Shown: piece by piece, positions 5,101 to 58,048 of the stretch
Layout: each line of letters starts with the position of its first letter
How positions within the stretch are numbered: the first letter of the stretch is position 1
Assembly: GCA_964604825.1 (NCBI GenBank)
Contig: CAZSAL010000009.1
Location: 2,479 to 66,478, forward strand
Length of the DNA: 64,000 nt
Origin: an uncultured Elusimicrobia bacterium
GTDB lineage: Bacteria; Elusimicrobiota; Elusimicrobia; 2-01-FULL-59-12
Direction of reading: 5' to 3'
Program-made: the position numbers and the translations under genes
The notes under the pieces: model-generated
What the model saw: only the letters and a program-made list of their open reading frames with translations
Databases searched by the model: none
Told to the model about the DNA's origin: nothing

Positions 5101-5122
5101 AGACGGTATTATATACAAACTC

Positions 5123-5214
5123 CTTCCCCCCTTGAGGGGGAAGGTGGGGATGGGGGGGTATTGTACGACGAAGATGGACCCCCCACCTCAGTCCTCCCCC
5201 TCAAGGGGGGAGGG
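5123..5214. repeat. Hairpin/G-tract/C-tract/hairpin composite repeat, copy R1 (pdxH-serS spacer)
   Basis: CCTTCCCCC-cttga-GGGGGAAGG, then TGGGGATGGGGGGG, a ~20-nt spacer, CCCCCCACCTCAGT, then CCTCCCCC-tcaa-GGGGGGAGG. Confidence 0.5.
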
Positions 5215-15329: not shown

Positions 15330-16676
15330 GTGAAAAAATCCAACGCTTCTGTCATGTCTCAAAGTTCTGAGTCGGTAAAAATCGCCCCGGCAAAAGGGAA
15401 ACTGGGAATTCTAATGCCCGGACTGGGCGCAGTAGCCAGTACATTTATCGCCGGAGTTATGGCTTCCCGCAAAGGCCTCGGCAAGCCCATCGGGTCGCTC
15501 ACCCAGATGGGCACCATACGCCTGGGCAAACGCACGGAACACCGCATCCCTATGATCAAGGATTTTGTGCCGCTTGCCGAACTGAAGGATCTCGTTTTCG
15601 GCGGCTGGGATATTTTCCCGGACAATATGTTTCGCGCCGCCACAAAAGCCGGAGTGCTTACCGCCGAACACCTCGCTCCCCTGCGCGCCGAGCTGGAAAA
15701 AATCAAACCGATGCCCGCGGTTTTTGATACTGCCTATGTCTCACGCATTTCCGGACCGAACGTTAAAAAGGGCAAATCCAAAATGGATCTGGCCCAGCAA
15801 CTCATGGCAGACATTGCCCAATTCAAGAAGACAAACCGCCTGGACCGGCTGGTGATGATCTGGTGCGCTTCTACGGAAAAATACCAGAAGGCGGCGGCGG
15901 TTCATAAAAATCTTGCGGTCTTTGAGAAAGGCCTCAGGGAAAATTCCCCGGACATTTCCCCCAGCCAGATTTACGCCTACGCCGCGCTGCAGTCCGGCGT
16001 TCCGGTTGCAAACGGCGCGCCCAACCTGATGGTGGATATCGGCGCCATCCGCGAACTGGCGGCGAAAAAGAGCCTCCCGGTTTGCGGCAAAGACTTCAAA
16101 ACCGGCCAGACCTTCATCAAGACCGTGCTGGCGCCCGCCTTCAAAGCGCGCCTGCTGGGACTGGACGGCTGGTTCTCTGCCAATATCCTCGGGAACCGGG
16201 ACGGCGAAGTGCTCGACGACCCGGAAGCTTTCAAGACCAAGGAAGAGTCAAAGCTCTCCGTTCTGGAATACATCCTTCAGCCCGATCTGTATCCCGATCT
16301 TTACGGCCACTATGACCATAAAGTACGGATAAATTACTACCCGCCCCGCGGCGACAACAAAGAAGGATGGGACAACATCGACATCTTCGGCTGGCTGAAT
16401 TATCCGATGCAGATCAAGGTGAATTTCCTCTGCCGGGATTCCATTCTGGCCGCGCCGATCGTCCTTGACCTGGCTATTTTTGTTGATCTGGCGCATCGCG
16501 CGGGGATGCAGGGCATTCAGGAATGGCTTTCCTTCTATTTCAAAAGCCCGATGGCTGCGCCGGGGCTTTACCCAGAGCATGACCTGTTTATCCAGCTGAT
16601 GAAGCTCAAAAACACCCTGCGCTATCTGCGCGGCGAAGAGCTCATCACGCACTTGGGCATCGAGTACTACGACTAG
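15330..16676 (+). CDS. ino1: myo-Inositol-1-phosphate synthase
   Basis: GILMPGLGAVASTFIAG (NAD-binding), NGAPN, KTGQT, and ~440 aa length typical of bacterial/archaeal MIPS. Start could be GTG 15330 or ATG 15354. Confidence 0.85.
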   Translation: MKKSNASVMSQSSESVKIAPAKGKLGILMPGLGAVASTFIAGVMASRKGLGKPIGSLTQMGTIRLGKRTEHRIPMIKDFVPLAELKDLVFGGWDIFPDNMFRAATKAGVLTAEHLAPLRAELEKIKPMPAVFDTAYVSRISGPNVKKGKSKMDLAQQLMADIAQFKKTNRLDRLVMIWCASTEKYQKAAAVHKNLAVFEKGLRENSPDISPSQIYAYAALQSGVPVANGAPNLMVDIGAIRELAAKKSLPVCGKDFKTGQTFIKTVLAPAFKARLLGLDGWFSANILGNRDGEVLDDPEAFKTKEESKLSVLEYILQPDLYPDLYGHYDHKVRINYYPPRGDNKEGWDNIDIFGWLNYPMQIKVNFLCRDSILAAPIVLDLAIFVDLAHRAGMQGIQEWLSFYFKSPMAAPGLYPEHDLFIQLMKLKNTLRYLRGEELITHLGIEYYD

Positions 16677-18616: not shown

Positions 18617-18645
18617 TTGACAGTCGGATACCGTCGATATAGAAT
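18617..18645 (+). promoter_or_regulatory. Consensus sigma70-type promoter for the small tandem-repeat protein gene
   Basis: TTGACA (18617-18622), 17-nt spacer, TAGAAT (18640-18645); the RBS GAGGGGG lies ~8 nt before ATG 18695. Confidence 0.6.
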
Positions 18646-18694: not shown

Positions 18695-18916
18695 ATGGCA
18701 GAGAAAGTGGCTAAGGCTGGTGTTAAACGGCAGGATGGGTATCTCTATTTCATCGATAAACAGGGAGATGTCTCTCGCGCCAAAATGGCACGCGGCGGAA
18801 AGAAGGGCGGCAAGCCTGAAAAAGTCGCAAAGGTTGGAGTCAAGAAGCAGGCGGGCTACCTGTATTTCCTCGACAAAGGTGGCGATGTATCCCGCGCCAA
18901 GATGAAACGCCGTTAG
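18695..18916 (+). CDS. Small basic tandem-repeat protein (2 x ~33 aa: VAKxGVKxQxGYLYFxDKxGDVSRAKM)
   Basis: 73 aa, Lys/Arg-rich, two nearly identical internal repeats. It is preceded by a consensus promoter (TTGACA-17-TAGAAT) and the RBS GAGGGGG. Confidence 0.5.
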   Translation: MAEKVAKAGVKRQDGYLYFIDKQGDVSRAKMARGGKKGGKPEKVAKVGVKKQAGYLYFLDKGGDVSRAKMKRR

Positions 18917-19116
18917 TCCCTCGGCTGCGCTCGGGAGACTGAGCAACGTCGAAGGAAATGGTCGTACTTTTTCAACAGAACCCCTTTCCCCAGGCTAGTC
19001 CTGAGGAAAGGGGTTTCTGCTTGTGGATCCAGCCCGCCTCAGGGTCGCTCATCATAAGTCAAATCCATTTTGATGGAGCGCAGCGGATCGAACCATGTGC
19101 TAAAATTCAATCCAAT

Positions 19117-19812
19117 ATGGAAACTTTTGCGAAGGAAACAGACGGTTTTTTCGCCCGCCATTTCGACCGGAAAATTTCCGGCGCAATCAGCCGCAGGTTG
19201 ATCCAGACCCCCGTCACCCCCAACCAGATAACCGTTGGCGTCACCCTCATCGGCATTTTCAGCGGCGTGCTTATGGCTCAGAAAGGAGCGACCTGCAAAA
19301 TCGCCGGGGCGCTTGTTTTTCTGCTGACCTCAATACTCGACGGGTGCGACGGCGAAGTGGCCCGCGCAAAAAAAATGACCTCCCGGCTGGGAGGATGGCT
19401 CGATCTCTGGGGTGACAATGTTATCCATATCGCCGTTTTCTATGGCCTGGGCTTGGGGCTTGCCAAAGATCTGGGAAACCCCGTCTACGTCGCATTGGGA
19501 CAGATTGCCGCAGTCGGGACTTTGATCGCGGCTTCTCTTGCCAGTTACCAGACTTACATGGCCGGTCGGAGTTCGTTCACTTCGGTATCCGGAGATGCGA
19601 GCCGGTTCTCTCAAAATAAGTGGACTGGAAAGCTTACCCGATTGAGCGACGTCCTGGCCCGGCGCGATTTCATCTATGGCGTTGTGGTTCTTGCCTTAGT
19701 TAACCGGCTGCAATGGTTCCTGTGGGCCTGCAGCATTGGAGTGGTGATGTATGCCTTTGTGCTATTGGTTTTATTCTTTCTTACATTGCCCGCAAAAAGG
19801 AGAGCGGAGTGA
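19117..19812 (+). CDS. CDP-alcohol phosphatidyltransferase family protein
   Basis: DGCDGEVARAKKMTSRLGGWLDLWGD matches D-G-x2-A-R-x8-G-x3-D-x3-D; multiple TM helices. ATG at 19117 (METFAKE...) is preferred over the upstream track start. The stop overlaps the next gene's GTG (GTGA). Confidence 0.75.
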   Translation: METFAKETDGFFARHFDRKISGAISRRLIQTPVTPNQITVGVTLIGIFSGVLMAQKGATCKIAGALVFLLTSILDGCDGEVARAKKMTSRLGGWLDLWGDNVIHIAVFYGLGLGLAKDLGNPVYVALGQIAAVGTLIAASLASYQTYMAGRSSFTSVSGDASRFSQNKWTGKLTRLSDVLARRDFIYGVVVLALVNRLQWFLWACSIGVVMYAFVLLVLFFLTLPAKRRAE

Positions 19813-20756
19813 AAATCTTCCGAATCATTGCGCTTTTGATCGGCCTCTCCGCAGTCGGATTCTTTGTTCATCAGGTGGGCGTATCGCAGGTGGCTTCGAC
19901 TTTAGGGCTTCTGCGCTGGAGTTATTTCATTGTACTGGCATACCCGCTTGTCTGGATGCTGTTGAATACCATGGGCTGGCAGGTGACGTGTCCCAGCGGG
20001 GTTTCTTTTCTGCGGCTGGTTCAAATCCGTATGGCGGGGGAATGCTTTAACTCGCTGCTTCCCTCCGGTTATGTCGGCGGCGAGCCGTTGAAAGTTAAAC
20101 TGCTGGCGGAAAAAACCGGGCTCAGAGAAGCGACGGCTTCGGCTCTTGTGGCAAAATCCGCTCAGAGCATCGGTATGGTGCTGTATCTGGGTTTAGGATT
20201 GACCTATGCCCGGCCGGAAGGCAGCACCCGAGACTGGGCGTCGCTGACTGCGCTTACAGCGCTGGGTCTGGGCATTGGTATCTTTACATGGCTCCTGGCT
20301 AACCGTTCTTTCAGCCGCCTGGGACGTGTGCTGCATCGCCTTACCGGGCATCCCTGGCTCCATAAGCAGGAGGGGCGTCTTTTGATGCTGGATGAGTCTC
20401 TGGGACATTTTTTCCGTCATGATACAGGCAGGTTTTTCGAAAGCGTTGTTTTTCATACCGGAGGCTGGCTGGCAGGAGCCCTGGAGTTATGGATAATCTT
20501 CCATTTGCTCGGTCACCCCTTCGGCTGGAAGGACGCCTGGTTTATGGGCGCCATGGCGCAGCTGGGAGCTACGGTGGGATTCGTTGCTCCTGCCGGGGTC
20601 GGTTTTTTCGAAGGGGGGCATTACCTCGCAGCTATAGCTTTAGGCCTGCCGCCGTCTCTGGGAGTCAGCGTCAGCCTTATCCGCCGGGTGCGCGAAATTT
20701 TCTGGGATATCGTCGGCGTAAGTCTCTTCTGGAAATTAACCCGCCGTCAGCAGTAA
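19809..20756 (+). CDS. Flippase-like / MprF-type transmembrane domain protein (UPF0104-like)
   Basis: ~315-aa polytopic membrane protein (KIFRIIALLIGLSAVGFFV..., GECFNSLLPSGYVGGEPLKVKLL) resembling the lysyl-PG synthase/flippase-like TM family. Translationally coupled to the CDP-alcohol phosphatidyltransferase upstream. Confidence 0.55.
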   Translation: MKIFRIIALLIGLSAVGFFVHQVGVSQVASTLGLLRWSYFIVLAYPLVWMLLNTMGWQVTCPSGVSFLRLVQIRMAGECFNSLLPSGYVGGEPLKVKLLAEKTGLREATASALVAKSAQSIGMVLYLGLGLTYARPEGSTRDWASLTALTALGLGIGIFTWLLANRSFSRLGRVLHRLTGHPWLHKQEGRLLMLDESLGHFFRHDTGRFFESVVFHTGGWLAGALELWIIFHLLGHPFGWKDAWFMGAMAQLGATVGFVAPAGVGFFEGGHYLAAIALGLPPSLGVSVSLIRRVREIFWDIVGVSLFWKLTRRQQ

Positions 20757-20772: not shown

Positions 20773-22284
20773 CTATTCCGAAAAGGCTTCGCTGCGGAAA
20801 ACCCGCAGTTCTACGGAAGGATCTTTCCAGCAGCCGGGAGGCAGTCCGGCCTTTTGCGAGCAAAGCGTATCCAAAAAAGATGTTTTATCCGGCAGACTTT
20901 CCCACACCTCAGGCAGGAAAAGTCCGGAATGGCGTCCATTACGCACGATCACGCCGTCGCGTCCCGGCACGATCTCTCCGGCATCTTTTATGCGCTGAGG
21001 CGGCGAAAGTATGGATATTTCGACGCGTATATCCTTAAGTTCGGCCTGTTCCAGCGGCTGGAAACGCGTGTCCTCAAAAGCGGCCGACCTAGCGAAATGA
21101 CGGACCGCTTCCCAGAGACTGAACTGCGGTTCTACAGTCCCCACACAGCCGCGCAATTCGCCGTGCCTGCGCAGCGTAACAAAGACCGCGGCGGGAAGGT
21201 TAAGGTCATAGTTTTTGTTCAGCGGCTCAAAGGAAAAACGTTTTTGCGCGAGTCCGTCGGCTATTGAAGTGCGCGCCGCATCAAGAAGCCGCTGCTGCGC
21301 CTTCTTATCCAGAAGGTCCGGGTTTTTGGGACGGCCTGCATGAACGAAAGCGACGGCAGCATAGCCTACGGAACGATCCGCCGTATCGGGAACCAGCTCC
21401 CCCGAATTGGCATAACGCAGGATCTGCGCCTGATTTGCGCCAAGGGCTTTAGCGGCGTAAAGACCCGTCCATATGGCGGTTTCACCGCAGGCGACCGTGA
21501 ACAGTTCCGGTTCCCCCCGGCTCATCAGTGTTTGCCCTGTCAGCTTCAGATATTCGGGATCAAGGCGCTCGAGCGCTTTGAGAAAAGTCTGGTCCACCGG
21601 CCTGGCTACATTGCTGCGCGGGTAATGCGAGAGGTCGGAGGAAATGACCAGGAGAGTTTTTCTTCCCCGCACGGCTTCCGCAATTGCAAGGCCCGCTTTG
21701 CGGGCAATCTCCAGATCTTCGGTGTTCATAACAACAGGCAGAATGCGGAATCTTTTAAGCCGCCGCTGCAGGAAAGGGAGCTGAACTTCAAGGGAATGTT
21801 CCGCGGCATGGGGTGCGGCTTCTTCCGCGAACACCGGAGAAGCAGCGAGCAGTTTCCCGGCAAGCTCTTCATCAACCGGCACGGAACCAAGCGGCGTCCG
21901 GAAAGATCCGCGCGCGACCAGGGCTGCGCCCTTGACCGCGACATGATGCGAGGGCCCGATCAGTATGACGGAAGGCCATTCGTCTTTCAGCGTCTTAAAG
22001 GCTTCCGCCGCTATTGGTCCGGAGTATTGATAGCCGGCATGCGGTACAAGGATTGCTGAAAGTTCCCCGTCAAGGCCATGCCTGCCGGCGCCGGCAAGAA
22101 GATGGTCCACCATATTCCTTAGCTCTCCCGGATTAGCGGGATAAAACTGCCCCGCTGCAGCCGGGGGTCTTTCATTTTCCGGTTGTGCGGCTGCAGGACG
22201 GCAAAACAGGGAACAGCCAAAAAAAAGCGAGCCAAATGCGGCCTTTTTATCCGGTACAAGGAGAATTTTCGGCATGCCGGACAA
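20773..22284 (-). CDS. Fused Memo-like (AmmeMemoRadiSam protein B) / AMMECR1 (protein A) protein
   Basis: N-terminal half has the Memo/extradiol-dioxygenase-like fold features (ILVPHAGYQYSGPIAAEAF, IGPSHH). The C-terminal half has the AMMECR1 signature AVFVTLRRHGELRGCVGTVEP. No radical-SAM partner lies adjacent. Confidence 0.7.
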   Translation of the reverse strand: MSGMPKILLVPDKKAAFGSLFFGCSLFCRPAAAQPENERPPAAAGQFYPANPGELRNMVDHLLAGAGRHGLDGELSAILVPHAGYQYSGPIAAEAFKTLKDEWPSVILIGPSHHVAVKGAALVARGSFRTPLGSVPVDEELAGKLLAASPVFAEEAAPHAAEHSLEVQLPFLQRRLKRFRILPVVMNTEDLEIARKAGLAIAEAVRGRKTLLVISSDLSHYPRSNVARPVDQTFLKALERLDPEYLKLTGQTLMSRGEPELFTVACGETAIWTGLYAAKALGANQAQILRYANSGELVPDTADRSVGYAAVAFVHAGRPKNPDLLDKKAQQRLLDAARTSIADGLAQKRFSFEPLNKNYDLNLPAAVFVTLRRHGELRGCVGTVEPQFSLWEAVRHFARSAAFEDTRFQPLEQAELKDIRVEISILSPPQRIKDAGEIVPGRDGVIVRNGRHSGLFLPEVWESLPDKTSFLDTLCSQKAGLPPGCWKDPSVELRVFRSEAFSE

Positions 22285-22323: not shown

Positions 22324-23373
22324 TCAGCGGGGGAGGGCGGGTTTTAATTCAGGGGGAGCAACAGGTACAGTCTTGCCGTTTAATGCGGCGGAAGCATAAG
22401 AAGCCTGCATCAGCGCCGCGCACCAGCCCGCTTCCCTAAAGTTTTTCCCGGTGGGATGGTCCAGTTCTTCGCGAAAGGCAGGCAGGAGAGCCTCGAACCA
22501 GTCAGCATGATGGGAACCGGCGGAAAGCGCGGCATCAAAATGGAATTCCTCGGTCATTCCGCCCGCCGCCAGGATAATCCGTACATCATCAATGATAAGC
22601 ACGCCTTTTTCACCATGAATGATTGCGGCATTGCGCCGGTTCGGCGCGCGCCAGGTGAGTTTTAGAAAAGCTTCGGCATCCCCGAATGAAATAACGCCTC
22701 GGGCAGCTTCTTCCAGATCGCCCGCGCCTGTCTGCATGCTCATGGATACGGCAGAAGGCTCCACGCCCATGAGGTTAAAAAGAAGGTAAAAAGCGTGCCA
22801 GCCATGATCAACAAGGATTCCTCCGCCGGCTACCGCTTTGTTCGTGCGCCAGTCTTCAGCCGGCTGCCTTCCGTTTGAGGAACCTTCCGAAGCGCCTTTG
22901 CAGTGGGAATTCCTCAGGACGTAGAGTTCCGTATGCCAGATCCGGCCCAGGCGTCCTTTGCGGATGAGTTCAAACGCTTTCTGAAAGATCTGCGCGTGTT
23001 TCCAGTTGTGGACCGTGAAGAGCGTTTTCGCATGCCGGGAAACCAGGCTGGAAAGGATTTCGTAATCGGCGGCACTCAAAGTAAGAGGTTTTTCGCAGAG
23101 GACATCCCAGCCGTTTGCCAGCGCCGTACCTGCGAATTCTACATGCGACGCGGGCGGCGTACAGATATCAACGAAATCCAGCCGTTCTCCGGCCAGGGCC
23201 TCGATAGAGGGAAAAACTTTCAGGTCCTTCTTAAAGGCCAGTGCGGCTTTGCGGCGGGCTTCGGCGGGATCGACGACGGCGACAATTTCAAAATCCGCAG
23301 ATTTCGCGTAACCCGGCCAATGGCCGTTGGCCGCCACATTGCCGAATCCTATAATGGCTCCGCGTCTAGGCAT
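22324..23373 (-). CDS. Gfo/Idh/MocA family NAD(P)-dependent oxidoreductase
   Basis: MPRRGAIIGFGNVAANGHWPGY (Rossmann), EKPLTLSAADYEIL, and ~350 aa from the internal Met. This family includes inositol 2-dehydrogenase. Confidence 0.75.
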   Translation of the reverse strand: MPRRGAIIGFGNVAANGHWPGYAKSADFEIVAVVDPAEARRKAALAFKKDLKVFPSIEALAGERLDFVDICTPPASHVEFAGTALANGWDVLCEKPLTLSAADYEILSSLVSRHAKTLFTVHNWKHAQIFQKAFELIRKGRLGRIWHTELYVLRNSHCKGASEGSSNGRQPAEDWRTNKAVAGGGILVDHGWHAFYLLFNLMGVEPSAVSMSMQTGAGDLEEAARGVISFGDAEAFLKLTWRAPNRRNAAIIHGEKGVLIIDDVRIILAAGGMTEEFHFDAALSAGSHHADWFEALLPAFREELDHPTGKNFREAGWCAALMQASYASAALNGKTVPVAPPELKPALPR

Positions 23374-24682
23374 GAATTTCGCCGGCGACGGCGCCGAGCG
23401 CTTCGTCGATGATTGCCGCGCCTTCGAGCGCTTCCGCTTCGGAAAGCGTGAGCGGAGGATGGATGCGGACGCGTGGAGCATATCCCATCATGATCAGCCC
23501 GCGCTTCAGGCACTCGGCAAAGAAGCGCTCGCAGAGCGGCTTGCCGAGGGACTCTTTTGTCGCCTGGTTTTTTACAAGTTCAAAACCGATCAGAAGTCCC
23601 CGGCCGCGCACTTCTCCGACAAACGGGTATTTGCTCAGGCGGCGCGCCAGTTCATTACGCAGGACAGCGCCCACCTTCGCGCTGTTTTCCACAAGATTGT
23701 CTTCCTTGATCGTCTGGAGGGTGACCATCGCAGCGGCGCTGGCAAAAGGGTTGCCGCCATAGCTGGAAGAAGAAGCGCTGGGCAGGGACCATGGTTTCGC
23801 CGAAACGATTTCGTCCGTGGAAACCACCCCGCTGACGGGAAATCCCGAACCCATGCCTTTGCCGATGGTCATAATATCGGGTTCGACATCGTCATGCTGA
23901 AAGCCGAACCATAGCCCCGTCCGGCCGAAGCCGCAGATCATCTCGTCGGAAATGTAGAGCGCTCCGTTTTCATGCGCGATGTCGCGCAGGGCGCGGAGAA
24001 ATCCGGCAGGGGGAATGATATTGCCTGCCGTACCCTGGATCGGCTCGGCTATAATCGCGGCAAGCTTGCCTCTGGCATTTTTCTGGATAACTTCTTTCAC
24101 CTGGTCAATTGCATGCTGGAGACATTTTTCCGTAGAACCGTTGAAGCGGTAAGTGTAGGGATAGGTGGCTATGTGCATTCCCGGCGCCAGCGGGCCGACA
24201 TGAATTTTCCAGTCCACGTCGGATAGCGGCAGGACGCCTCCGGTTTTTCCATGGAAGCCGCCGGTAAAGCCGATCACATCCGTGTGTTTGGTATAGGAAC
24301 GGGCCAGGCGTATCGCGGCCTCAACCGCTTCTGCGCCACCGGAGAAAAGCTGCGTGCGGCCCAATTTTCCCGGAGCCAGTTCATTGATAAGCTTCATGAA
24401 TTTCAGGCGGGCTTCGCTGGTAAAACTGCCCACTGTGACTTTTTCCAGCTGCGCGCGCATCGCTGCGATATATTTCGGGTGCGAATAACCCAGGCTGCAG
24501 ACCGAGACGCCCACGTTGAAGTCCAGATAACGGTTGCCGTCCACGTCGTAAAGATAAGAGCCCTGGCCATGATCGATTGTGAGCTTGGAAAGCAGCGCGA
24601 TGGACTGAATTCCCGGGGCAATCAAATGCTGTTCTTCTTCGAAAAGAGCGGCTGATTTCGGCCCGGGCCAATTATTCACCCC
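23366..24682 (-). CDS. Class III (omega-type) PLP-dependent aminotransferase
   Basis: GFTGGFHGKTGG, DEMICGFGRTG, and a Lys-containing TIGKGMGSG block. A likely GTG start near 24682 is preceded by GGGAGAGGG. The track ORF extends upstream through a repeat element. Confidence 0.8.
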   Translation of the reverse strand, partial: GVNNWPGPKSAALFEEEQHLIAPGIQSIALLSKLTIDHGQGSYLYDVDGNRYLDFNVGVSVCSLGYSHPKYIAAMRAQLEKVTVGSFTSEARLKFMKLINELAPGKLGRTQLFSGGAEAVEAAIRLARSYTKHTDVIGFTGGFHGKTGGVLPLSDVDWKIHVGPLAPGMHIATYPYTYRFNGSTEKCLQHAIDQVKEVIQKNARGKLAAIIAEPIQGTAGNIIPPAGFLRALRDIAHENGALYISDEMICGFGRTGLWFGFQHDDVEPDIMTIGKGMGSGFPVSGVVSTDEIVSAKPWSLPSASSSSYGGNPFASAAAMVTLQTIKEDNLVENSAKVGAVLRNELARRLSKYPFVGEVRGRGLLIGFELVKNQATKESLGKPLCERFFAECLKRGLIMMGYAPRVRIHPPLTLSEAEALEGAAIIDEALGAVAGEIHA

Positions 24683-24772
24683 TCTCCCCTTGTGGGAGAG
24701 GGTGGGGGTGAGGGGAGGTGTTGATCTCATGATAGTCCCCCTATCCTAGCCTTCCCCCGCAAGGGGGGAAGG
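24679..24772. repeat. Hairpin/G-tract/C-tract/hairpin composite repeat, copy R2 (ATP-grasp / aminotransferase junction)
   Basis: CCCTCTCCC-cttgt-GGGAGAGGG, then TGGGGGTGAGGGGAGG, a spacer, TCCCCCTATCCTAG, then CCTTCCCCC-gcaa-GGGGGGAAGG. Same order and arm sequences as R1. Confidence 0.5.
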
Positions 24773-25615
24773 AATTTTAAACAGGCAGTTGTTTTCGTAG
24801 GCATAGTATGTTTCCTTTAGGTAACGAGCTATAGCGCTGGCCGCCGCGCCGCGGCACGGAGCGAAAGAGGGCCAGTCGTTGAGGTCAATCAGAGTAATTT
24901 TGCCATCGGACGAAATGATGGCGTCGCCGCCGTAAATGGCGATATCAAGCGCCGCCGCAGCCTGTTCCGCTATGCGCTGCAGTTCCTGTTCGACAAAAGG
25001 GTAGCCTTCGCATTCTTTGGGATAGTAAGGCCAGAACAGACCGTCTCCGCGGACGGCATAAAATTTGACCTCATCTCCTGCGCAGTGCGCCTGGAGCACG
25101 GCCTTCTTCAATCCCCGGGAGGAAAACTGTTTAAGCGCGGCAGGCAGCAGCGGAGCTTTTTCTATGCGCAGCACGTCTCCCGCCTGCGTGGCATGCACGT
25201 CGTCGCGCTTAAGCCATGCGCCGTCATTCTCAAAAAAAGGCTCCAGCAGTTTAAGATCTTCAGATCCATCGGTCTTCACTTCCACGCTTTTGGGAAAGGC
25301 AAGATGGTTTTCAAGCATCAGCCGGCAAAGGAAGTCGCGGTAGGTGGCGCGCGAAGCGGCGGGATCGTTGCAGATCAGCGCGCCGGAACTTTGCCATTCC
25401 GTAAGCTCCGCTATCGCATCAGGTCCCTGGCACATGGAAAAAATCAGGGAGGCGTCCTTCCAGCAGTTCCGGGCTTCATCAATTGTCGTAAGCTTCAGGG
25501 GAATGTTTTCCCTTTCCAGGGCCATGCCTACCAGCCGCAGTATTTTGGCGTCATTCGAATTGTGGCGGCCGGGCGAATAAGCAGGTTCGCGATAAATGCC
25601 GAGGAAGGGCTTCAT
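24746..25615 (-). CDS. ATP-grasp-like protein (tentative)
   Basis: The C-terminal block DIAIYGGDAIISSDGKITLIDLNDWPSFA resembles the ATP-grasp Mg/ATP-binding region. The assignment is weak. The last 8 codons are encoded by a hairpin repeat. Confidence 0.35.
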   Translation of the reverse strand: MKPFLGIYREPAYSPGRHNSNDAKILRLVGMALERENIPLKLTTIDEARNCWKDASLIFSMCQGPDAIAELTEWQSSGALICNDPAASRATYRDFLCRLMLENHLAFPKSVEVKTDGSEDLKLLEPFFENDGAWLKRDDVHATQAGDVLRIEKAPLLPAALKQFSSRGLKKAVLQAHCAGDEVKFYAVRGDGLFWPYYPKECEGYPFVEQELQRIAEQAAAALDIAIYGGDAIISSDGKITLIDLNDWPSFAPCRGAAASAIARYLKETYYAYENNCLFKIPSPLAGEG

Positions 25616-26364
25616 CGAGGTAACCGCCTTTCCGCGGAAACGATGTCTTCCGGCCGGTCAATATCCATAACCGGAGGCAAAGGCACGCCGTAAATGCGGT
25701 AGCCGCATTTCAGCAGATGGCCGAGAAACTGGCGGAGAGCGGTGTAATTGTTTTTCAGGGCAGCCTCTTTTTCCTTCAAAATTTCCGGTTGAACGAAATA
25801 AAACCCGGAAGTTACATAACTGCTTTGAAATCCACCGTCATTCATGGCAACGATTTCGAAAGCCTCCGGGCGGTCTTCAATCCTGTCCGGCATGAAGCCG
25901 GAATCAGTTTCCCCGCGCAGAGCAACGCGCAGGGGTTTTTCGTCCTCAATAAAATCGGTCAAGCCCAGGACTACATGCGCATTCGCAAAAAGCCGGGATT
26001 TCCTGGCAAATTCGCTGTAAATCTCCGGGGGACAAACTGAATCAACCGTAGTGATCAGACAGGCGTCCGCATTCTTCCGCGCCAGCCGCTCAAGCACTAT
26101 CAAAAAACTGTGCATTGATGAGGGAGTAGTCCGGATGATCCAGTCCGCCTGAACCGGCCTTCCCTGCCCCGAAACATATGCGGGGACTTCGCCCGCCTGT
26201 TCATTAACTATGCAGGTGAAACTTTGCGCGCCTGCGGCCTGGAGGCCGTCCAGCGCGTAGTCAATAAGCGCTTTTCCGGCAACCTGCGTCAGAGCCTTTG
26301 GTTGCTTTTTCCCGAGCCGCTCACCCCATCCTGCAGCTATGATGCCGGCATTCAAGGCTGTCAC
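25612..26364 (-). CDS. Nucleotidyltransferase (NTP-transferase / MobA-like fold)
   Basis: N-terminal GIIAAGWGERLG (G-x-G-x-R-L-type motif of sugar/alcohol-phosphate nucleotidyltransferases); ~250 aa. It overlaps its neighbours by 4 nt on each side (operon). Confidence 0.6.
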   Translation of the reverse strand: MTALNAGIIAAGWGERLGKKQPKALTQVAGKALIDYALDGLQAAGAQSFTCIVNEQAGEVPAYVSGQGRPVQADWIIRTTPSSMHSFLIVLERLARKNADACLITTVDSVCPPEIYSEFARKSRLFANAHVVLGLTDFIEDEKPLRVALRGETDSGFMPDRIEDRPEAFEIVAMNDGGFQSSYVTSGFYFVQPEILKEKEAALKNNYTALRQFLGHLLKCGYRIYGVPLPPVMDIDRPEDIVSAERRLPR

Positions 26365-27062
26365 AACCCCTCATGGACGTGCGCAAGTCTGACAGGTAAA
26401 TCTTCCAGGCTGTGCAGAATAAGATCGACTTTTGAAGGATCAGGACAGGTTCGCACTTCCGGGCCGCGCAGCCAGCAGGTTTTCATGCCCAGGGCTTTTG
26501 CCGGCAGGATATCGCGTTCAAAAGAATCCCCCACGAATGCAATTTCCCGGGGTGAGGAAACGGCAAGTTCTTCCATTGCCTTCTGAAAAATCGCCGGATC
26601 AGGTTTTTTGAGTCCTATGACAGCGGAATCCAAAATTACTTTAAGAAAAGGCGTGTAGCCAAATTCCCTGCATAACACCGCTATATTCCCATAAAAATTT
26701 GAAATGATTCCCAGCTTGTATCCGGCAGCTGACAATTTCTCCAGAATTTTGCGGTTCCTGCGCAGTATTCGTTCCGCCGGGCGTGAAAATGCGGTTACGG
26801 CTTCATCCTTTTGCGCAGGATTATTTAATTTAAGTTTTTCAAACTGCCAGTGTACATGTCGCTCCATCATGTCGCGCAGGCCGGATTCACGGATGCCTGA
26901 GTCGACTTCAGCCTGAGCATCGGCATAGTAAAAAGCCTCTTTAAGCCTGGGTTGAGCGATATTAACGCCCAGATGTTGGTAGATGCTGTAGAACCGATCC
27001 AGCCAATGAAGGCCATCGGCATCAAGCGTTCCACCAAAATCAAATAGAATTGATGAAATCAT
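26361..27062 (-). CDS. HAD-superfamily hydrolase/phosphatase
   Basis: MISSILFDFGGTLD (HAD motif I variant), later SNF..., and the C-terminal GDSFERDILPAKALGM (motif IV). The internal Met at 27062 is preferred over the track start at 27200. Confidence 0.6.
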   Translation of the reverse strand: MISSILFDFGGTLDADGLHWLDRFYSIYQHLGVNIAQPRLKEAFYYADAQAEVDSGIRESGLRDMMERHVHWQFEKLKLNNPAQKDEAVTAFSRPAERILRRNRKILEKLSAAGYKLGIISNFYGNIAVLCREFGYTPFLKVILDSAVIGLKKPDPAIFQKAMEELAVSSPREIAFVGDSFERDILPAKALGMKTCWLRGPEVRTCPDPSKVDLILHSLEDLPVRLAHVHEGL

Positions 27063-27142
27063 AATTCGAGTTGATTTTTCAATTATTTTTAATGGGTACG
27101 GAGTTAGATTGGCACAAAAATTGTAGATTTTTCCGCATATTG

Positions 27143-27171
27143 TTGTCAAGGCACAGATGAAATGATAAAAT
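27143..27171 (+). promoter_or_regulatory. Promoter candidate for the MBL-hydrolase/hemL operon
   Basis: TTGTCA-17 nt-TAAAAT in the 100-bp AT-rich divergent spacer between the HAD operon and the MBL gene. Confidence 0.4.
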
Positions 27172-27191
27172 TCCGCAAACAAAGAGGTTTT

Positions 27192-28049
27192 ATGCGTCAT
27201 TTCAATTCGATTTGTCCCCTAGGCGGCGCAGTTTTTTCTTTCCTTTCGTTAATATGCGGATTAGCATTTCCGCTGTGTCTCCATGCAGATGTTTTTCAAA
27301 CAAATACCGGTCAGGAAGGCGCACCTCCTATAACCCAGCCTATACAGCCTCTTAAGGATTCGGGATTCTCGCCTGATGTTCACATCACCTGGTTAGGTCA
27401 ATCCTGCTTTGCATTTCACAGCTTTAAAGGGAACAGCCTTCTGACGGATCCCTATAATCCTGATATCGGTTACCCTCCCCCGGTAATTGATACAAGAGTA
27501 GTAACAATAAGTAACGAACATCCAGACCATAATTATTTGCCGGCTGTTTCCGGTGCGCCCATTGTGATTCGTTCAGTAGGTGAAACCGCAACCGGCGGGT
27601 TGATTTTTCAGGGCATCCGTTCATGGCATGACAATGTTAAGGGGAAAAAGCTCGGCCCTAACCGGATTTTCAAATGGAACATGGGAGGACTCCGGTTTGT
27701 GCACCTGGGCGATCTTGGCCAGCATCGGTTGACGGCGGCCCAGTTAAAAGCGATAGGGATGGTGGATGTTCTGCTTATTCCCGTTGGGGGCGTAGCTACG
27801 ATCAATGGCACCCAGGCGTTGGAGATTGTAAAACAGCTTCAGCCCAAAATGGTCATACCCATGCATTACAAGACGGATGCGCTGAAAATCAAGCTCGATA
27901 CCATAGACAATTTTCTAAAAGGCCCTTATACGGTGGTGAATACCGGCAAATCCGATTTGCTCTTGAACAGTTCAAGCCTGCCGGCGAAACCAACGATTTT
28001 TGTCATGGATTATGTCCACAAAAACCCAACAGCAGGGGGAACTCATTGA
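27192..28049 (+). CDS. MBL-fold metallo-hydrolase (secreted)
   Basis: Signal peptide MRHFNSICPLGGAVFSFLSLICGLAFPLCLHA, ITWLGQSCF...TDPY, HPDHN. RBS AGAGG lies 7 nt upstream of ATG 27192. Promoter candidate TTGTCA-17-TAAAAT at 27143-27171. Confidence 0.6.
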   Translation: MRHFNSICPLGGAVFSFLSLICGLAFPLCLHADVFQTNTGQEGAPPITQPIQPLKDSGFSPDVHITWLGQSCFAFHSFKGNSLLTDPYNPDIGYPPPVIDTRVVTISNEHPDHNYLPAVSGAPIVIRSVGETATGGLIFQGIRSWHDNVKGKKLGPNRIFKWNMGGLRFVHLGDLGQHRLTAAQLKAIGMVDVLLIPVGGVATINGTQALEIVKQLQPKMVIPMHYKTDALKIKLDTIDNFLKGPYTVVNTGKSDLLLNSSSLPAKPTIFVMDYVHKNPTAGGTH

Positions 28050-29338
28050 AAGCACATAAATCAGAAGCGCTTTTTAAAAAGTCGCAGGAAGTGCTGGTGG
28101 GCGGGGTTAACTCTCCGGTAAGGTCTTTCAAGGCCGTAGGCGGGACGCCACGGTTTATTATCCGGGGCAAAGGGCCGTTTATCTGGGATGCCGACGGTAA
28201 ACGCTATGTGGATTTTTGTTCTTCATGGGGGGCAGGCATCCTCGGGCACGCCGCTCCGGCCGTAGTATCTGCGGTAACCCGCGCCGCGCGGCTGGGGCTC
28301 AGTTTCGGCGCGCCTACGGAACGTGAACTGGAACTGGCCGAGATCATCTCAAAAGCGCTGCCTTCGATGCAGCGGATGCGCTTTGTTTCCTCGGGCACGG
28401 AAGCGGTCATGTCGGCGGTGCGCCTGGCTCGCGCCGCCACGCAGCGTGAAATCCTGGTGAAATTTTCCGGCGGATATCATGGACATGCCGACTCGGTGCT
28501 GATCAAGGCCGGCTCGGGCACGCTGAGCCTTGCCGCTCCGGATTCCGCAGGAGTGCCTTCCGTTCTTGCGCAGCGCACGCGTGTTCTGCCGTATAACGAT
28601 CTGGACGCGCTGAAGGATCTTTTCCGCCGCGAGGGACAATCGATAGCAGCAGTCATTGTGGAGCCTGTGGCTGCGAATATGGGTGTAGTGCTGCCCCGCC
28701 AGGGGTTTCTCGAAGAGATAAGGACTCTGACTGCACAGCACAGCGCGGTTCTGATTTTTGACGAGGTGATCACGGGATTCCGGGTTGCTTATGGTGGCGC
28801 GCAGGCCCTTTATTCGGTAGCGCCCGATCTGACATGCCTGGGCAAAGTTGTGGGCGGGGGTTTGCCTCTGGCGGTTTACGGCGGCAGGCGCGATCTGATG
28901 GAATGGGTAGCGCCGCTGGGTCCGGTGTACCAGGCGGGAACCCTGGCCGGAAATCCGCTTGCCGTGTCCGCAGGGATCGCTACGCTTAAGCAGCTTAAGG
29001 AAAAATCTCCCTACAAGATTCTCGAAAAGCTGGCCGCCGATTTCGTGGCTGACATCGAAGATGTGGCGCGGCAGGTTGGATGTAACATGCGCATAAACCG
29101 TGCGGGCTCGATGTGGACGCCATTTTTTACCAACGCCCCGGTAGTAGACCTGACAAGCGTCCAAAGGTCCAACGGCCCCTTATATGCATCCTTTTTCCAG
29201 CAGATGTTGCTTCGAGGCGTTTATTTGCCGCCGTCGCCTTATGAGGCCTCCTTCATTTCCACGGCGCACACAAAGGGACTGCTCAATAGAACCGTTGAGA
29301 TCATTGAGAAAGTACTGAAAACGATTCCTGTCTCCTGA
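28048..29338 (+). CDS. hemL: Glutamate-1-semialdehyde 2,1-aminomutase
   Basis: SEALFKKSQEVLVGGVNSPVRSF, GHAAPAVVSAV, and the conserved Lys region. A likely TTG start near 28048 gives the typical N-terminus. Confidence 0.85.
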
Positions 29339-29340
29339 AC

Positions 29341-55331: not shown

Positions 55332-55358
55332 ACCTGAATCGGCGCAAGCGGTATCACA

Positions 55359-56923: not shown

Positions 56924-56981
56924 CCCACCACCTCATTGGGTACGACAATACCCGCCGTCGGTGTGCAATGAGGTGGTGGGA

Positions 56982-57875: not shown

Positions 57876-57940
57876 TGATCAAGTTTAACAGGGGTGGGCT
57901 GAATAACCTATTGCAGGCCTGCAAATTCTATGTGAATTGT

Positions 57941-57983
57941 GTGTGACAGTTATGTCATTTATTCGTCATGTATCTTTTACAAA
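57941..57983. promoter_or_regulatory. Pho-box-like site (TGTCAT-ttat-TCGTCAT with an inverted TGTCAC upstream) in the divergent promoter region
   Basis: GTGTGACAG-ttaT-GTCAT-ttat-tcGTCAT: hexamers at 57953-58 and 57964-69 (11-bp spacing), with CTGTCAC on the other strand at 57943-49. A TACAAA -10 candidate lies 9 nt downstream for the + gene. Compare the E. coli Pho box CTGTCAT-N4-CTGTCAT. Confidence 0.5.
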
Positions 57984-58048
57984 TCTGATACAGAATTCAG
58001 GAAACGTATCAGGTAAGATTCAAATCACAAAAAGGGATAAAGGAAATC

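What the first reader, a model, noticed from the sequence alone, without database searches (positions are those of the whole stretch)
22324..27062. Oxidoreductase / class-III aminotransferase / ATP-grasp / nucleotidyltransferase / HAD-phosphatase operon next to myo-inositol-1-phosphate synthase and a CDP-alcohol phosphatidyltransferase-flippase pair
Five minus-strand genes overlap by 4-8 nt each: HAD, NTP-transferase, ATP-grasp, aminotransferase and Gfo/Idh/MocA dehydrogenase (the family of inositol 2-dehydrogenase). They lie 5-11 kb from ino1 (15330-16676) and from a translationally coupled CDP-alcohol phosphatidyltransferase plus MprF-like flippase (19117-20756). MIPS, a cytidylyltransferase, a CDP-alcohol transferase and a phosphatase together are the complete enzyme set for di-myo-inositol phosphate or phosphatidylinositol-type synthesis. 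The extra dehydrogenase and aminotransferase suggest inositol goes to inosose and then to an aminocyclitol. The ATP-grasp suggests amide ligation. A plausible product is an aminocyclitol- or inositol-derived compatible solute or lipid headgroup that is exported or flipped. I do not recognise this combination as a described pathway.
Basis: inference. Interest (0 to 1): 0.65.

Follow-up and report, generated by a model that had tools for sequence, protein, structure and literature searches.

The report
Aminated inositol-lipid head-group gene cluster
These five genes belong to a gene set, conserved across several bacterial phyla, that most likely builds an inositol-based membrane-lipid head group through CDP-inositol; here it carries two extra enzymes that probably turn the inositol into an amino-inositol, a lipid type I found no report of.

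Summary
The window (an Elusimicrobiota MAG) has a minus-strand run HAD, NTP-transferase, ATP-grasp, class-III aminotransferase, Gfo/Idh/MocA dehydrogenase. Three of its four junctions overlap by 4, 4 and 8 nt.

The proposed link to ino1 and to the CDP-alcohol transferase/flippase pair is strongly supported. In 34 non-redundant related loci the ATP-grasp gene sits beside a CDP-alcohol transferase (33), HAD (33), NTP-transferase (30), MIPS (21) and the flippase-like gene (18). Natural fusions exist: NTP–ATP-grasp, HAD–NTP–ATP-grasp and ATP-grasp–CDP-alcohol transferase.

The core matches a partly known pathway: CDP-inositol-dependent inositol-lipid synthesis (Rhodothermus IPCT/BEPIS; the unconfirmed "alternative cluster" of gut Bacteroidetes). 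It is probably not a di-myo-inositol-phosphate (DIP) solute pathway.

Two things appear to be new:
- The ATP-grasp belongs to no Pfam family and is a core member overlooked in the papers I could read.
- The dehydrogenase and aminotransferase are an all-or-none add-on (14 both, 20 neither, 0 alone) in at least four phyla. This fits an inosose-to-inosamine conversion and an amino-inositol lipid, but is unproven.

The exact ATP-grasp and HAD steps remain unresolved.

The parts
15330..16676 (+). myo-inositol-1-phosphate synthase (MIPS, eukaryote-like type)
   Evidence: PF07994 6e-99 and PF01658 8e-32. A MIPS gene lies within 10 kb of the ATP-grasp gene in 21 of 34 related loci.
18958..19812 (+). 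CDP-alcohol phosphotransferase of the DIPPS/AF2299 type; presumed transferase of the phospho-cyclitol head group
   Evidence: PF01066 2.6e-11. NCBIfam best hit is the DIPPS half of IPCT/DIPPS, 7.5e-25, below the cutoff. PDB hits: AF2299 1e-20, IPCT/DIPPS 6e-13, PIPS 2e-4, and the DGxxAR...GxxxDxxxD motif is present. Found next to the ATP-grasp gene in 33 of 34 loci. An ATP-grasp–CDP-OH transferase fusion exists, P0248.
19809..20756 (+). Flippase-like membrane protein (LPG_synthase_TM domain, HpnL-like), with no MprF synthase domain
   Evidence: PF03706 2.6e-28. TIGR03476 HpnL 1.7e-44, below the cutoff. Its GTG start overlaps the transferase stop by 4 nt. Present in 18 of 34 loci.
22324..23373 (-). 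Gfo/Idh/MocA NAD(P)-dependent dehydrogenase; presumed cyclitol (or CDP-/phospho-cyclitol) dehydrogenase
   Evidence: PF01408 1e-19 and PF22725 1e-17. No NCBIfam equivalog passes (IolG 48 bits against a cutoff of 355). GxGxxG, EKP and D-x3-H motifs are readable in the translation. Occurs only together with the aminotransferase.
23366..24730 (-). Class-III (GABA-aminotransferase-like) PLP aminotransferase; presumed keto-cyclitol aminotransferase
   Evidence: PF00202 3.6e-98. Best PDB relatives are GABA aminotransferases, 1e-70 to 1e-61. No NCBIfam model passes its cutoff. Strict co-occurrence with the Gfo gene: 14 both, 0 alone. The start is uncertain: ATG 24730 or GTG 24679.
24746..25615 (-). 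ATP-grasp enzyme of a family with no Pfam model; core member of the cluster, catalytic step unresolved (kinase-type favoured)
   Evidence: AF2 pLDDT 92.7. Foldseek to Ddl/LysX/PsnB, TM about 0.7. Family profile against PDB: PsnB 1e-7, ITPK4 2e-6, RimK 6e-6, ITPK1 3e-4. Zero of 60 members reach any Pfam cutoff. 937 cluster representatives at E<=1e-3. Fusions to NTP-transferase, HAD and CDP-OH transferase.
25612..26364 (-). NTP_transf_3 nucleotidyltransferase; presumed CTP:inositol-phosphate cytidylyltransferase (IPCT-like)
   Evidence: PF12804 4.5e-11. NCBIfam top hit is IPCT/DIPPS at 3.6e-9, far below the cutoff. The family profile aligns end to end only with IPCT structures 4jd0, 2xme and 4mnd (4e-13 to 2e-11), although RmlA scores slightly better over part of the length.
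26361..27062 (-). HAD-IA hydrolase with a non-canonical motif I (D-F-G-G-T)
   Evidence: PF00702 3e-17 and PF13419 1e-16. Best NCBIfam hit is DREG-2-like, 1e-22, below the cutoff. Motif I is D-[FYLM]-G-G-T in all 60 family members where a motif was found. Next to the ATP-grasp gene in 33 of 34 loci.
27120..27149 (-). Sigma-70-like promoter match upstream of the HAD start codon
   Evidence: TTGACA-18-TACAAT, 11 of 12. This is a consensus match only. The total number of such matches in the region does not exceed chance.

Best explanation
The five genes are the soluble-enzyme half of a conserved module that builds the polar head group of a membrane lipid from glucose-6-phosphate.

Better-supported steps:
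- MIPS makes inositol phosphate.
- The IPCT-like nucleotidyltransferase activates it with CTP to a CDP-cyclitol.
- The DIPPS/BEPIS-type CDP-alcohol phosphotransferase transfers the phospho-cyclitol onto a lipid alcohol (diacyl/dialkyl glycerol or ceramide).
- The MprF/HpnL-like flippase-domain protein moves the product across the membrane.

Inferred step: the Gfo/Idh/MocA dehydrogenase and the class-III aminotransferase always occur together and only in some lineages, including this one. They most plausibly oxidise one ring hydroxyl and transaminate the ketone (inosose to inosamine). Whether they act on the free, phosphorylated or CDP-activated cyclitol is unknown. The result would be a zwitterionic amino-inositol phospholipid or sphingolipid instead of an anionic inositol lipid.

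Most speculative step: the ATP-grasp is a core member that does not depend on the amine. It most likely performs an ATP-dependent phosphorylation of the cyclitol phosphate, like the ATP-grasp inositol-phosphate kinases ITPK and PPIP5K. The HAD would then remove a phosphate, or pyrophosphate, later. A comparable kinase/phosphatase/nucleotidyltransferase logic is known from heptose-nucleotide synthesis, and other prokaryotic inositol pathways pass through PIP or DIPP intermediates (both from my own knowledge).
For: - Domain assignments.
- The same five-gene order occurs in a second Elusimicrobia genome and in Verrucomicrobiota.
- Single tightly packed operon NTP-MlaE-MlaF-MlaD-ATPgrasp-AT-CDPOH-Gfo-LPGTM-HAD-MIPS in L012 and in Ignavibacteria-type loci L027 and L039.
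- Co-occurrence in 34 loci: CDPOH 33, HAD 33, NTP 30, MIPS 21, LPGTM 18; AT and Gfo 14 both, 0 alone.
- Fusions: NTP–ATPgrasp (six representatives), HAD–NTP–ATPgrasp, and ATPgrasp–NTP-like–CDPOH; an NTP–ATPgrasp fusion inside an AT/Gfo-containing locus.
- CDPOH is nearest AF2299/DIPPS, not PIPS. The NTP family aligns full-length only with IPCTs.
- Lipid context: LPG_synthase_TM, MlaEFD, PIPS/PgpA/PAP2/acyltransferase, and Spt-like plus GNAT neighbours.
- AT/Gfo-free clusters occur in Sphingobacterium. That genus makes ceramide phosphoryl-myo-inositol (Naka 2003, as cited in PMC4587543 and PMC9246714), and Heaver reports no BT-type cluster for it.
- CDP-inositol-dependent lipid synthesis is experimentally established in Rhodothermus (Jorge 2015, as summarised in PMC4587543).
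- Heaver 2022 proposes NTP + CDPOH + HAD next to MIPS as an alternative inositol-lipid route and reports a CDPOH–HAD fusion.
- Kinase reading of the ATP-grasp: a C-terminal liDlNdWPSF motif resembles ITPK4 VDLNYLPSF (D-x-N, not the E-x-N of RimK); PDB profile hits to ITPK4 at 2e-6 and ITPK1 at 3e-4; 12 of 60 members weakly hit PF05770.
Against: - No substrate was tested for any enzyme.
- The ATP-grasp is at least as close in sequence and fold to ligases (PsnB 1e-7, RimK 6e-6; Foldseek top hits are Ddl/LysX/ArgX/PsnB) as to ITPKs. ITPK1 is not among the top 50 Foldseek hits.
- In Rhodothermus, IPCT plus BEPIS were reported to suffice without a kinase or phosphatase. The need for the ATP-grasp and HAD is therefore unexplained rather than demonstrated.
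- The HAD lacks the canonical Asp+2 general acid/base, which is atypical for a phosphomonoesterase.
- The known inosose aminotransferases (StsC, BtrS) are DegT-family, not class III (my own knowledge).
- Muribaculaceae operons carry a BT-like PIPS/PAP2 set together with this module. This suggests the module's product differs from plain PI/IPC in some way I cannot specify.
- In other Elusimicrobia loci MIPS is not within the flank examined.
Confidence: 0.5

Rival explanations
1. Same cluster and the same lipid destination, but the ATP-grasp is a ligase. It would attach a carboxylate, for example an amino acid, to the cyclitol head group: as an amide on the amine in clusters with the aminotransferase, or as an ester on a hydroxyl elsewhere. 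The HAD would remove a phosphate from the ligated product. The Campylobacter capsule enzymes Cj1437/Cj1438/Cj1435 (aminotransferase, ATP-grasp amide ligase, HAD phosphatase) work this way (my own knowledge).
For: The closest PDB relatives by sequence and fold are ligases, including the ester- and amide-forming PsnB. Fourteen of 60 members weakly hit RimK and 14 of 60 hit ATPgrasp_ST. The flippase-like partner belongs to the MprF family, which handles aminoacylated lipids. In a rough midpoint-rooted NJ tree the clusters with AT/Gfo are the phylogenetically wider set, so an amine-linked ancestral role is conceivable.
Against: The ATP-grasp is retained, with invariant catalytic residues, in many clusters with no amine-forming genes. 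The cluster encodes no candidate carboxylate-supplying enzyme. The only inositol lipids reported from organisms or genera with such AT/Gfo-free clusters are plain ceramide/diacylglycerol phosphoinositol, with no extra mass. However, I could not confirm that the strains analysed carry the ATP-grasp gene.
Confidence: 0.2
2. The module makes a soluble solute of the di-myo-inositol-phosphate type (or an aminated version): MIPS, then IPCT, then DIPPS, then the HAD as DIPP phosphatase. The flippase-like protein would act as an exporter.
For: MIPS + cytidylyltransferase + DIPPS-like transferase + phosphatase is exactly the DIP enzyme set. The best NCBIfam hit for both the NTP-transferase and the CDP-alcohol transferase is the Thermococcales IPCT/DIPPS model. 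DIPPS is the second-best PDB hit.
Against: Scores are far below the equivalog cutoff (88 and 36 bits against 580). Hosts are mesophiles, including gut Bacteroidales. The cluster is repeatedly linked to lipid genes: MlaEFD, PIPS/PAP2/acyltransferase, Spt-like, LPG_synthase_TM. A homologous CDP-inositol route to lipids is known.
Confidence: 0.1
3. The cluster makes an ordinary, non-aminated inositol lipid. The dehydrogenase/aminotransferase pair serves another purpose, such as epimerisation to another inositol isomer, modification of the lipid backbone, or an unrelated amino-compound step.
For: Class-III aminotransferases are not the family known for inosose amination. No equivalog model passes for either enzyme. 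Members of this fold also act as racemases and lyases.
Against: The two genes are never found singly, and they are interleaved with core genes inside the operon (ATPgrasp-AT-CDPOH-Gfo-LPGTM) in several phyla. The only polyol the cluster makes is inositol. The aminotransferase retains a lysine in the TIGKG segment expected for the Schiff-base lysine, read from the translation.
Confidence: 0.12
4. The five genes are an unrelated sugar or amino-acid pathway that merely lies near ino1 in this genome.
For: In this window a Memo–AMMECR1 gene and about 5.6 kb separate the operon from ino1. In other Elusimicrobia loci MIPS is not adjacent.
Against: Cross-phylum synteny and domain fusions tie HAD, NTP-transferase and ATP-grasp to the CDP-alcohol transferase, and synteny ties them to MIPS.
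Confidence: 0.03

Closest known systems
Rhodothermus marinus MIPS–IPCT–BEPIS operon (CDP-inositol-dependent inositol phospholipid synthesis; Jorge, Borges & Santos 2015, PMID 25472423, read only through its summary in PMC4587543)
   Same: MIPS is clustered with a soluble inositol-phosphate cytidylyltransferase-like enzyme and a CDP-alcohol phosphotransferase. The head group, not the lipid, is CTP-activated. Homologues were reported in Sphingobacteria, where I also find the cluster.
   Different: This cluster always adds an ATP-grasp and a non-canonical HAD, usually a flippase-like protein, and in this lineage a dehydrogenase/aminotransferase pair.
Bacteroides (Phocaeicola) vulgatus-type 'alternative inositol lipid cluster' (Heaver et al. 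2022, PMC9246714); proposed, not confirmed experimentally
   Same: NTP-transferase + CDP-alcohol phosphatidyltransferase + HAD beside MIPS, with an LPG-synthase-like gene nearby. The gene order I see in Bacteroidota is NTP>ATPgrasp>CDPOH>LPGTM>HAD. This would fit locus tags BVU_RS13095/13105/13115 with two undiscussed genes in between, which is my inference.
   Different: The paper never mentions an ATP-grasp. It assigns the HAD an AUR1-like role, which is unlikely for a soluble HAD-IA. It has no dehydrogenase or aminotransferase. Orthology to the BVU proteins themselves was not tested.
Archaeal and Thermotoga IPCT/DIPPS di-myo-inositol-phosphate pathway
   Same: Best-scoring characterised relatives of both the nucleotidyltransferase and the membrane transferase. 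It also needs a terminal phosphatase.
   Different: Scores are far below the equivalog cutoffs. The hosts are mesophilic and the gene context is lipid-related. Extra enzymes are present.
Aminocyclitol formation in streptomycin/rhizopine pathways, and kanosamine NtdC/NtdA/NtdB (Gfo-family dehydrogenase, then aminotransferase, then HAD phosphatase) — from my own knowledge
   Same: A Gfo/Idh/MocA dehydrogenase paired with a PLP aminotransferase converts a ring hydroxyl to an amine. An ino1-derived precursor and phosphatase or kinase steps surround it.
   Different: Those aminotransferases are DegT/class-V type and their products are antibiotics or opines. Here the aminotransferase is class III and the product is handed to a CDP-alcohol transferase.
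ITPK and PPIP5K ATP-grasp inositol-phosphate kinases; RimK/PsnB ATP-grasp ligases
   Same: Full three-domain ATP-grasp fold, conserved Lys/Lys/Asp/Asp/Asn ATP-Mg residues, and an ITPK-like D-x-N-x-[WFL]-P-S-F motif.
   Different: No member reaches the gathering score of PF05770, RimK or any other Pfam family. Identity to every solved structure is 10-17%. It is best treated as a new ATP-grasp family.

Membership tests
CDP-inositol-dependent inositol lipid pathway (IPCT/BEPIS type) | MIPS gene clustered with the pathway genes | tested here: met
   PF07994 6e-99 at 15330-16676. MIPS lies within 10 kb of the ATP-grasp gene in 21 of 34 loci and is in-operon in L010, L012, L027 and L032.
CDP-inositol-dependent inositol lipid pathway (IPCT/BEPIS type) | Soluble CTP:inositol-phosphate cytidylyltransferase | tested here: inconclusive
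   The family profile aligns over its full length only with IPCT structures (4jd0 3.8e-13, 2xme 2.6e-12, 4mnd 1.8e-11), but RmlA 3hl3 scores 3.4e-15 over positions 1-183. The NCBIfam IPCT/DIPPS hit is 36 bits against a cutoff of 580.
CDP-inositol-dependent inositol lipid pathway (IPCT/BEPIS type) | CDP-alcohol phosphotransferase of the clade that uses soluble CDP-alcohol donors, with the D-G-x2-A-R...G-x3-D-x3-D motif | tested here: met
   AF2299 1e-20, DIPPS 6e-13, PIPS only 2e-4. The motif is visible in the alignment.
CDP-inositol-dependent inositol lipid pathway (IPCT/BEPIS type) | Orthology to R. marinus BEPIS, and a lipid acceptor | not tested
B. vulgatus-type alternative inositol lipid cluster (Heaver 2022) | NTP-transferase + CDP-alcohol phosphatidyltransferase + HAD adjacent to MIPS, LPG-synthase-like gene nearby | tested here: met
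   All are present in the window and in Bacteroidota loci with the same order. Sequence comparison with BVU_RS13095/13105/13115 themselves was not possible.
IPCT/DIPPS (DIP synthesis) equivalog NF041135 | Score above the curated cutoff | tested here: not met
   87.8 bits (transferase) and 36.1 bits (NTP-transferase) against a cutoff of 580.
ATP-grasp superfamily | Three-domain ATP-grasp fold with conserved ATP/Mg ligands | tested here: met
   AF2 pLDDT 92.7. Foldseek probability 1.0, TM 0.6-0.74 to Ddl/LysX/ArgX/PsnB. K136, K184, D231, D244 and N246 are invariant in 40-60 diverse members.
ITPK inositol-phosphate kinases (PF05770) | Match above the Pfam gathering score; inositol-phosphate kinase activity | tested here: not met
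   Only 12 of 60 members give weak hits (best E 0.002), none at the cutoff. PDB profile hits to ITPK4 (2e-6) and ITPK1 (3e-4) are confined to the C-terminal 50-75 residues. Activity is not testable here.
RimK-type ATP-grasp ligases (PF08443) | Match above the Pfam gathering score | tested here: not met
   14 of 60 members give weak hits, best E 4.8e-5, none at the cutoff. RimK structures score 6e-6 to 2e-4 over positions 69-270.
Class-III aminotransferases (PF00202) | Domain match; a specific equivalog | tested here: met
   329 bits against a cutoff of 30.5. None of 69 NCBIfam models reaches its cutoff, so the substrate is unassigned.
Inositol 2-dehydrogenase IolG (TIGR04380) | Score above the equivalog cutoff | tested here: not met
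   48.4 bits against 355. It is a Gfo/Idh/MocA member (PF01408 71.7 bits) with no assignable substrate.
Canonical HAD phosphatases | Motif I D-x-D-x-T, with Asp+2 as general acid/base | tested here: not met
   The window has D-F-G-G-T. Across the family the motif is D-[FYLM]-G-G-T in 60 of 60 members where it was found. The HAD fold itself is met (PF00702 64 bits).
MprF (lysyl-phosphatidylglycerol synthase/flippase) | LPG_synthase_TM flippase domain plus C-terminal aminoacyl-PG synthase domain | tested here: not met
   Only PF03706 is present in a 315-347 aa protein. It is closest to the HpnL subfamily, 152 bits against 195. It is flippase-like, not an MprF.

The most novel reading that the evidence does not exclude
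Bacteria of at least four phyla (Elusimicrobiota, Verrucomicrobiota, Ignavibacteria/Bacteroidota, Nitrospirota) make a membrane-lipid class I found no report of: an amino-inositol (inosamine) phospholipid or phosphosphingolipid. It would be assembled Kennedy-style from a CDP-aminocyclitol. The conserved ATP-grasp would be a bacterial inositol-phosphate kinase related to the eukaryotic/archaeal ITPKs, and it would also be a missing step of the inositol-lipid route of gut Bacteroidales.
Probability: 0.3. Interest if true: 0.8.

Novelty: new variant of a known kind. Interest (0 to 1): 0.62.

Why it matters
Inositol lipids are rare in bacteria. In gut Bacteroidetes they affect capsule, antimicrobial-peptide resistance and host colonisation (PMC9246714).

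This analysis shows that the "alternative" CDP-inositol-type cluster has a universally conserved ATP-grasp gene that was not noted before. The family has more than 6,000 protein clusters at E<=1e-30 in one search, many of them in gut Bacteroidales. It also has an unusual HAD. The published three-enzyme scheme is therefore probably incomplete.

The version with a dehydrogenase and an aminotransferase predicts a zwitterionic amino-inositol head group. If it exists, it would be a new lipid class and a possible biomarker. It would also be a new way to neutralise membrane surface charge. It would give concrete enzymes to test for cyclitol amination by a class-III aminotransferase.

Tried and rejected
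- The first AF2 model, built from 22 close homologues, was poor (pLDDT 64). A 40-sequence diverse alignment fixed this.
- The Haliangium homologue (L003, 39% identity) stands alone beside a sensor kinase and a PilZ gene. It gave no context.
- I tried to place the cluster in B. vulgatus itself. Name look-ups returned Muribaculaceae, Parabacteroides, Sphingobacterium and Runella, but not Phocaeicola or Prevotella.
- Literature searches for inosamine or amino-inositol phospholipids found nothing relevant.
- The Jorge 2015 paper is not held.
- The Memo–AMMECR1 fusion and the Omp85 gene were considered as cluster members and rejected. Each is present in only 1 of 34 loci, the window itself.
- A sphingolipid link through the window's alpha-oxoamine synthase (58049-59338) stays open. 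It scores below every Spt/Kbl/BioF cutoff, and the nearby GNAT is unrelated to the GNAT in the Verrucomicrobia locus.
- I rejected the idea that the HAD is an AUR1-like IPC synthase (Heaver's suggestion). It is a soluble HAD-IA with no membrane segments, read from the translation.

Full report
**Observation.** The window comes from an Elusimicrobiota metagenome-assembled genome. The ATP-grasp protein is 100% identical to one on an 88.9-kb JGI contig, and its nearest named relatives are Elusimicrobiota MAGs. Pfam confirms the minus-strand run: HAD (26361-27062), NTP_transf_3 (25612-26364), a weak ATP-grasp (24746-25615), Aminotran_3 (23366-24730) and GFO_IDH_MocA (22324-23373). On the plus strand it confirms MIPS (15330-16676), an Omp85-family gene, a CDP-alcohol phosphotransferase (18958-19812) and an LPG_synthase_TM protein (19809-20756). 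Read directly, three of the four junctions overlap: GTGA, ATGA and ATGCCTAG. The ATP-grasp/aminotransferase junction has a 15-66 nt spacer that holds two GC-rich hairpins. A near-consensus sigma-70-like site precedes ATG 27062.

**Is the cluster real and linked to ino1?** Yes.
- The same HAD-NTP-ATPgrasp-AT-Gfo order, followed by a convergent LPG_synthase_TM gene, occurs in another Elusimicrobia chromosome whose ATP-grasp is only 63% identical. It also occurs in Verrucomicrobiota, there preceded by the CDP-alcohol transferase.
- In L012 and in Ignavibacteria-type loci all parts form one tightly packed operon: NTP-MlaE-MlaF-MlaD-ATPgrasp-AT-CDPOH-Gfo-LPGTM-(small ORF)-HAD-MIPS.
- I scanned 80 further metagenomic loci with my own phmmer panel. 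In the 34 non-redundant loci with at least 5 kb on both sides of the ATP-grasp gene, a CDP-alcohol transferase is present in 33, HAD in 33, NTP-transferase in 30, MIPS in 21 and LPG_synthase_TM in 18. The aminotransferase and the Gfo gene are present together in 14 and never singly. Memo–AMMECR1 and Omp85 are present only in the window.
- Among 50%-identity representatives there are fusion proteins: NTP–ATPgrasp (six), HAD–NTP–ATPgrasp (P0184) and ATPgrasp–degenerate-NTP–CDP-alcohol transferase (P0248).
- Together these results refute coincidental proximity.

**What the parts are.**
- CDP-alcohol transferase. It is closest to A. fulgidus AF2299 (1e-20) and IPCT/DIPPS (6e-13), and much further from PIP synthases (2e-4). 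It carries the catalytic motif. This places it with enzymes that take a soluble CDP-alcohol donor.
- NTP-transferase. A profile of the family aligns end to end only with the three IPCT structures (4e-13 to 2e-11). RmlA scores marginally better over a partial stretch, so IPCT identity is likely but not proven.
- ATP-grasp. With a diverse alignment AlphaFold gives pLDDT 92.7, a full three-domain ATP-grasp. Foldseek's best matches are the ligases Ddl, LysX/ArgX and PsnB, at TM about 0.7 and 10-17% identity. No member of the family reaches any Pfam gathering score. Weak hits divide among RimK, ATPgrasp_ST, Ins134_P3_kin and R2K_3. A family profile hits PsnB (1e-7), ITPK4 (2e-6), RimK (6e-6) and ITPK1 (3e-4). 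The Mg-binding motif liDlNdWPSF resembles the ITPK D-x-N...PSF form rather than the RimK E-x-N form. It is a new ATP-grasp family, with 937 representatives at E<=1e-3.
- Aminotransferase. It is GABA-aminotransferase-like.
- Dehydrogenase. It is a generic Gfo/Idh/MocA member.
- Neither the aminotransferase nor the dehydrogenase passes any NCBIfam equivalog cutoff.
- HAD. It is a capped type-IA enzyme, but its motif I is D-x-G-G-T across the whole family. The canonical second aspartate is missing.

**Three recurrent architectures.**
- Core only: NTP>ATPgrasp>CDPOH>(LPGTM)>HAD beside MIPS, with no aminotransferase or Gfo gene. It occurs in Parabacteroides, Sphingobacterium, Runella, Muribaculaceae and other Bacteroidota.
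- Core plus the aminotransferase/Gfo pair. It occurs in Elusimicrobiota (this window), Verrucomicrobiota, Ignavibacteria, other Bacteroidota MAGs and Nitrospirota.
- A Muribaculaceae form in which the ATP-grasp/CDPOH/HAD genes share an operon with a BT-like PgpA/PIPS/PAP2/acyltransferase set.
- In a rough midpoint-rooted NJ tree of the ATP-grasp proteins, the long-contig loci without the pair form one Bacteroidota clade. Apparent cases without the pair elsewhere are all on truncated contigs. The version with the pair is therefore the phylogenetically wider one.

**Comparison with what is known.** Heaver et al. 2022 proposed, without confirmation, an alternative inositol-lipid cluster in B. vulgatus and Prevotella: NTP-transferase, CDP-alcohol phosphatidyltransferase and HAD next to MIPS, with an LPG-synthase-like gene nearby. 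They also noted a transferase–HAD fusion. They do not mention an ATP-grasp. Jorge et al. 2015, as summarised in PMC4587543, showed that the MIPS–IPCT–BEPIS operon of Rhodothermus marinus makes an ether glycerophosphoinositol from CDP-inositol. Sphingobacterium carries the core-only cluster. It is reported to make ceramide phosphoryl-myo-inositol, and Heaver found no BT-type cluster in that genus. The core of this finding is thus a member of a known, partly characterised kind. I found no description of the ATP-grasp, the odd HAD or the dehydrogenase/aminotransferase pair.

**Mechanism.**
- Reasonably supported. MIPS makes inositol phosphate. A CDP-cyclitol donor is formed from it. The head group is transferred to a lipid alcohol, and the product is flipped across the membrane. 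A lipid product is favoured over a soluble one by the MlaEFD, LPG_synthase_TM, PIPS/PAP2/acyltransferase and Spt-like/GNAT neighbours, and by the mesophilic hosts.
- Inferred. The dehydrogenase and aminotransferase convert one ring hydroxyl to an amine. Their all-or-none co-occurrence and their interleaving with core genes argue that they act on the cluster's own polyol. The level at which they act (free, phosphorylated or CDP-bound) is unknown, and class III is not the family known for inosose amination.
- Speculative. The ATP-grasp acts as a cyclitol-phosphate kinase, and the HAD removes a phosphate or pyrophosphate. In favour: the ATP-grasp is independent of the amine, it is fused to the NTP-transferase, it has ITPK-like motifs, and only plain inositol lipids have been reported from hosts with core-only clusters. 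Against: its equal or greater similarity to ligases, the reported sufficiency of IPCT plus BEPIS in Rhodothermus, and the missing Asp+2 in the HAD.

**Verdict.** This is a new variant of a known kind, of moderately high interest. It predicts an undescribed amino-inositol lipid in at least four phyla, and it exposes an overlooked conserved enzyme in a pathway that is widespread in gut Bacteroidales. No biochemical step was tested. Every substrate assignment beyond family membership is inference.

Noticed in passing
window 18695-18916 (+): A 73-aa, very basic protein made of two ~33-aa repeats (EKVAKxGVKxQxGYLYFxDKxGDVSRAKM), with its own 11/12 sigma-70-like site at 18617-18645. It is 71/73 identical in another Elusimicrobia genome whose neighbouring enzymes are only ~63% identical. 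It sits beside the CDP-alcohol transferase or flippase gene in all Elusimicrobia loci examined. It has no Pfam family. It might be a nucleoid or ribosome-associated protein rather than a cluster member.
   Followed up: partly
window 26361-27062 and homologues in loci L001-L092: The cluster's HAD hydrolase has motif I D-[FYLM]-G-G-T instead of D-x-D-x-T in every family member checked (60 of 60). The general acid/base aspartate of ordinary HAD phosphatases is absent.
   Followed up: partly
window 20773-22284 (-): A fused Memo-like + AMMECR1 protein (AmmeMemoRadiSam system proteins B and A in one 503-aa ORF) is wedged between the Gfo gene and the flippase gene. It is absent at this position in all other related loci. 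I did not look for a radical-SAM partner.
   Followed up: no
window 16701-18197 (+): An Omp85-family outer-membrane protein gene starts 25 nt after the MIPS stop codon and is probably co-transcribed with it. This pairing was not seen in any other locus.
   Followed up: partly
window 54282-59338: A group of lipid-like genes about 30 kb from the cluster: GNAT (54282-55331), an MGDG-synthase-like glycosyltransferase (55796-56923), an LpxH-like metallophosphoesterase (56982-57875) and an alpha-oxoamine synthase (58049-59338). The synthase scores 420-440 bits to the Spt/BioF/Kbl models, below all cutoffs. Verrucomicrobia and some Bacteroidota loci have an Spt-like gene right beside the inositol cluster, so a sphingolipid acceptor is possible.
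   Followed up: partly
window 24680-24702, 24750-24772 and 5122-5144: Nine-bp GC-rich hairpins (CCCTCTCCC...GGGAGAGGG and CCTTCCCCC...GGGGGAAGG) flank the ATP-grasp stop and the aminotransferase start. A second copy of the latter hairpin lies after the gene that ends at 5118. They look like small REP-like elements and make the aminotransferase start codon ambiguous.
   Followed up: partly
L001 7917-8999: In one Elusimicrobiota MAG a YhcG/DUF1016 PD-(D/E)XK nuclease gene is inserted between the NTP-transferase and ATP-grasp genes of the operon.
   Followed up: no
protein cluster of L055/L081 (P0526, P0527): NCBI names 305-aa Parabacteroides proteins as 'CDP-alcohol phosphatidyltransferase family protein'. 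These proteins fall in the same 90%-identity cluster as the 285-aa ATP-grasp homologue, so this is probably a mis-annotation carried over from the neighbouring gene.
   Followed up: no
window 27162-34346 (+): A block lies divergent from the operon: Lactamase_B_3, a HemL-like class-III aminotransferase, DUF1015, a chorismate-binding enzyme, a 444-aa unknown protein and HisG. The block from the HemL-like gene onward is conserved beside the cluster in another Elusimicrobia genome (L006). Its function and any relation to the cluster are unknown.
   Followed up: no
window 48122-54208 (+): A 2028-aa ORF with no Pfam match.
   Followed up: no
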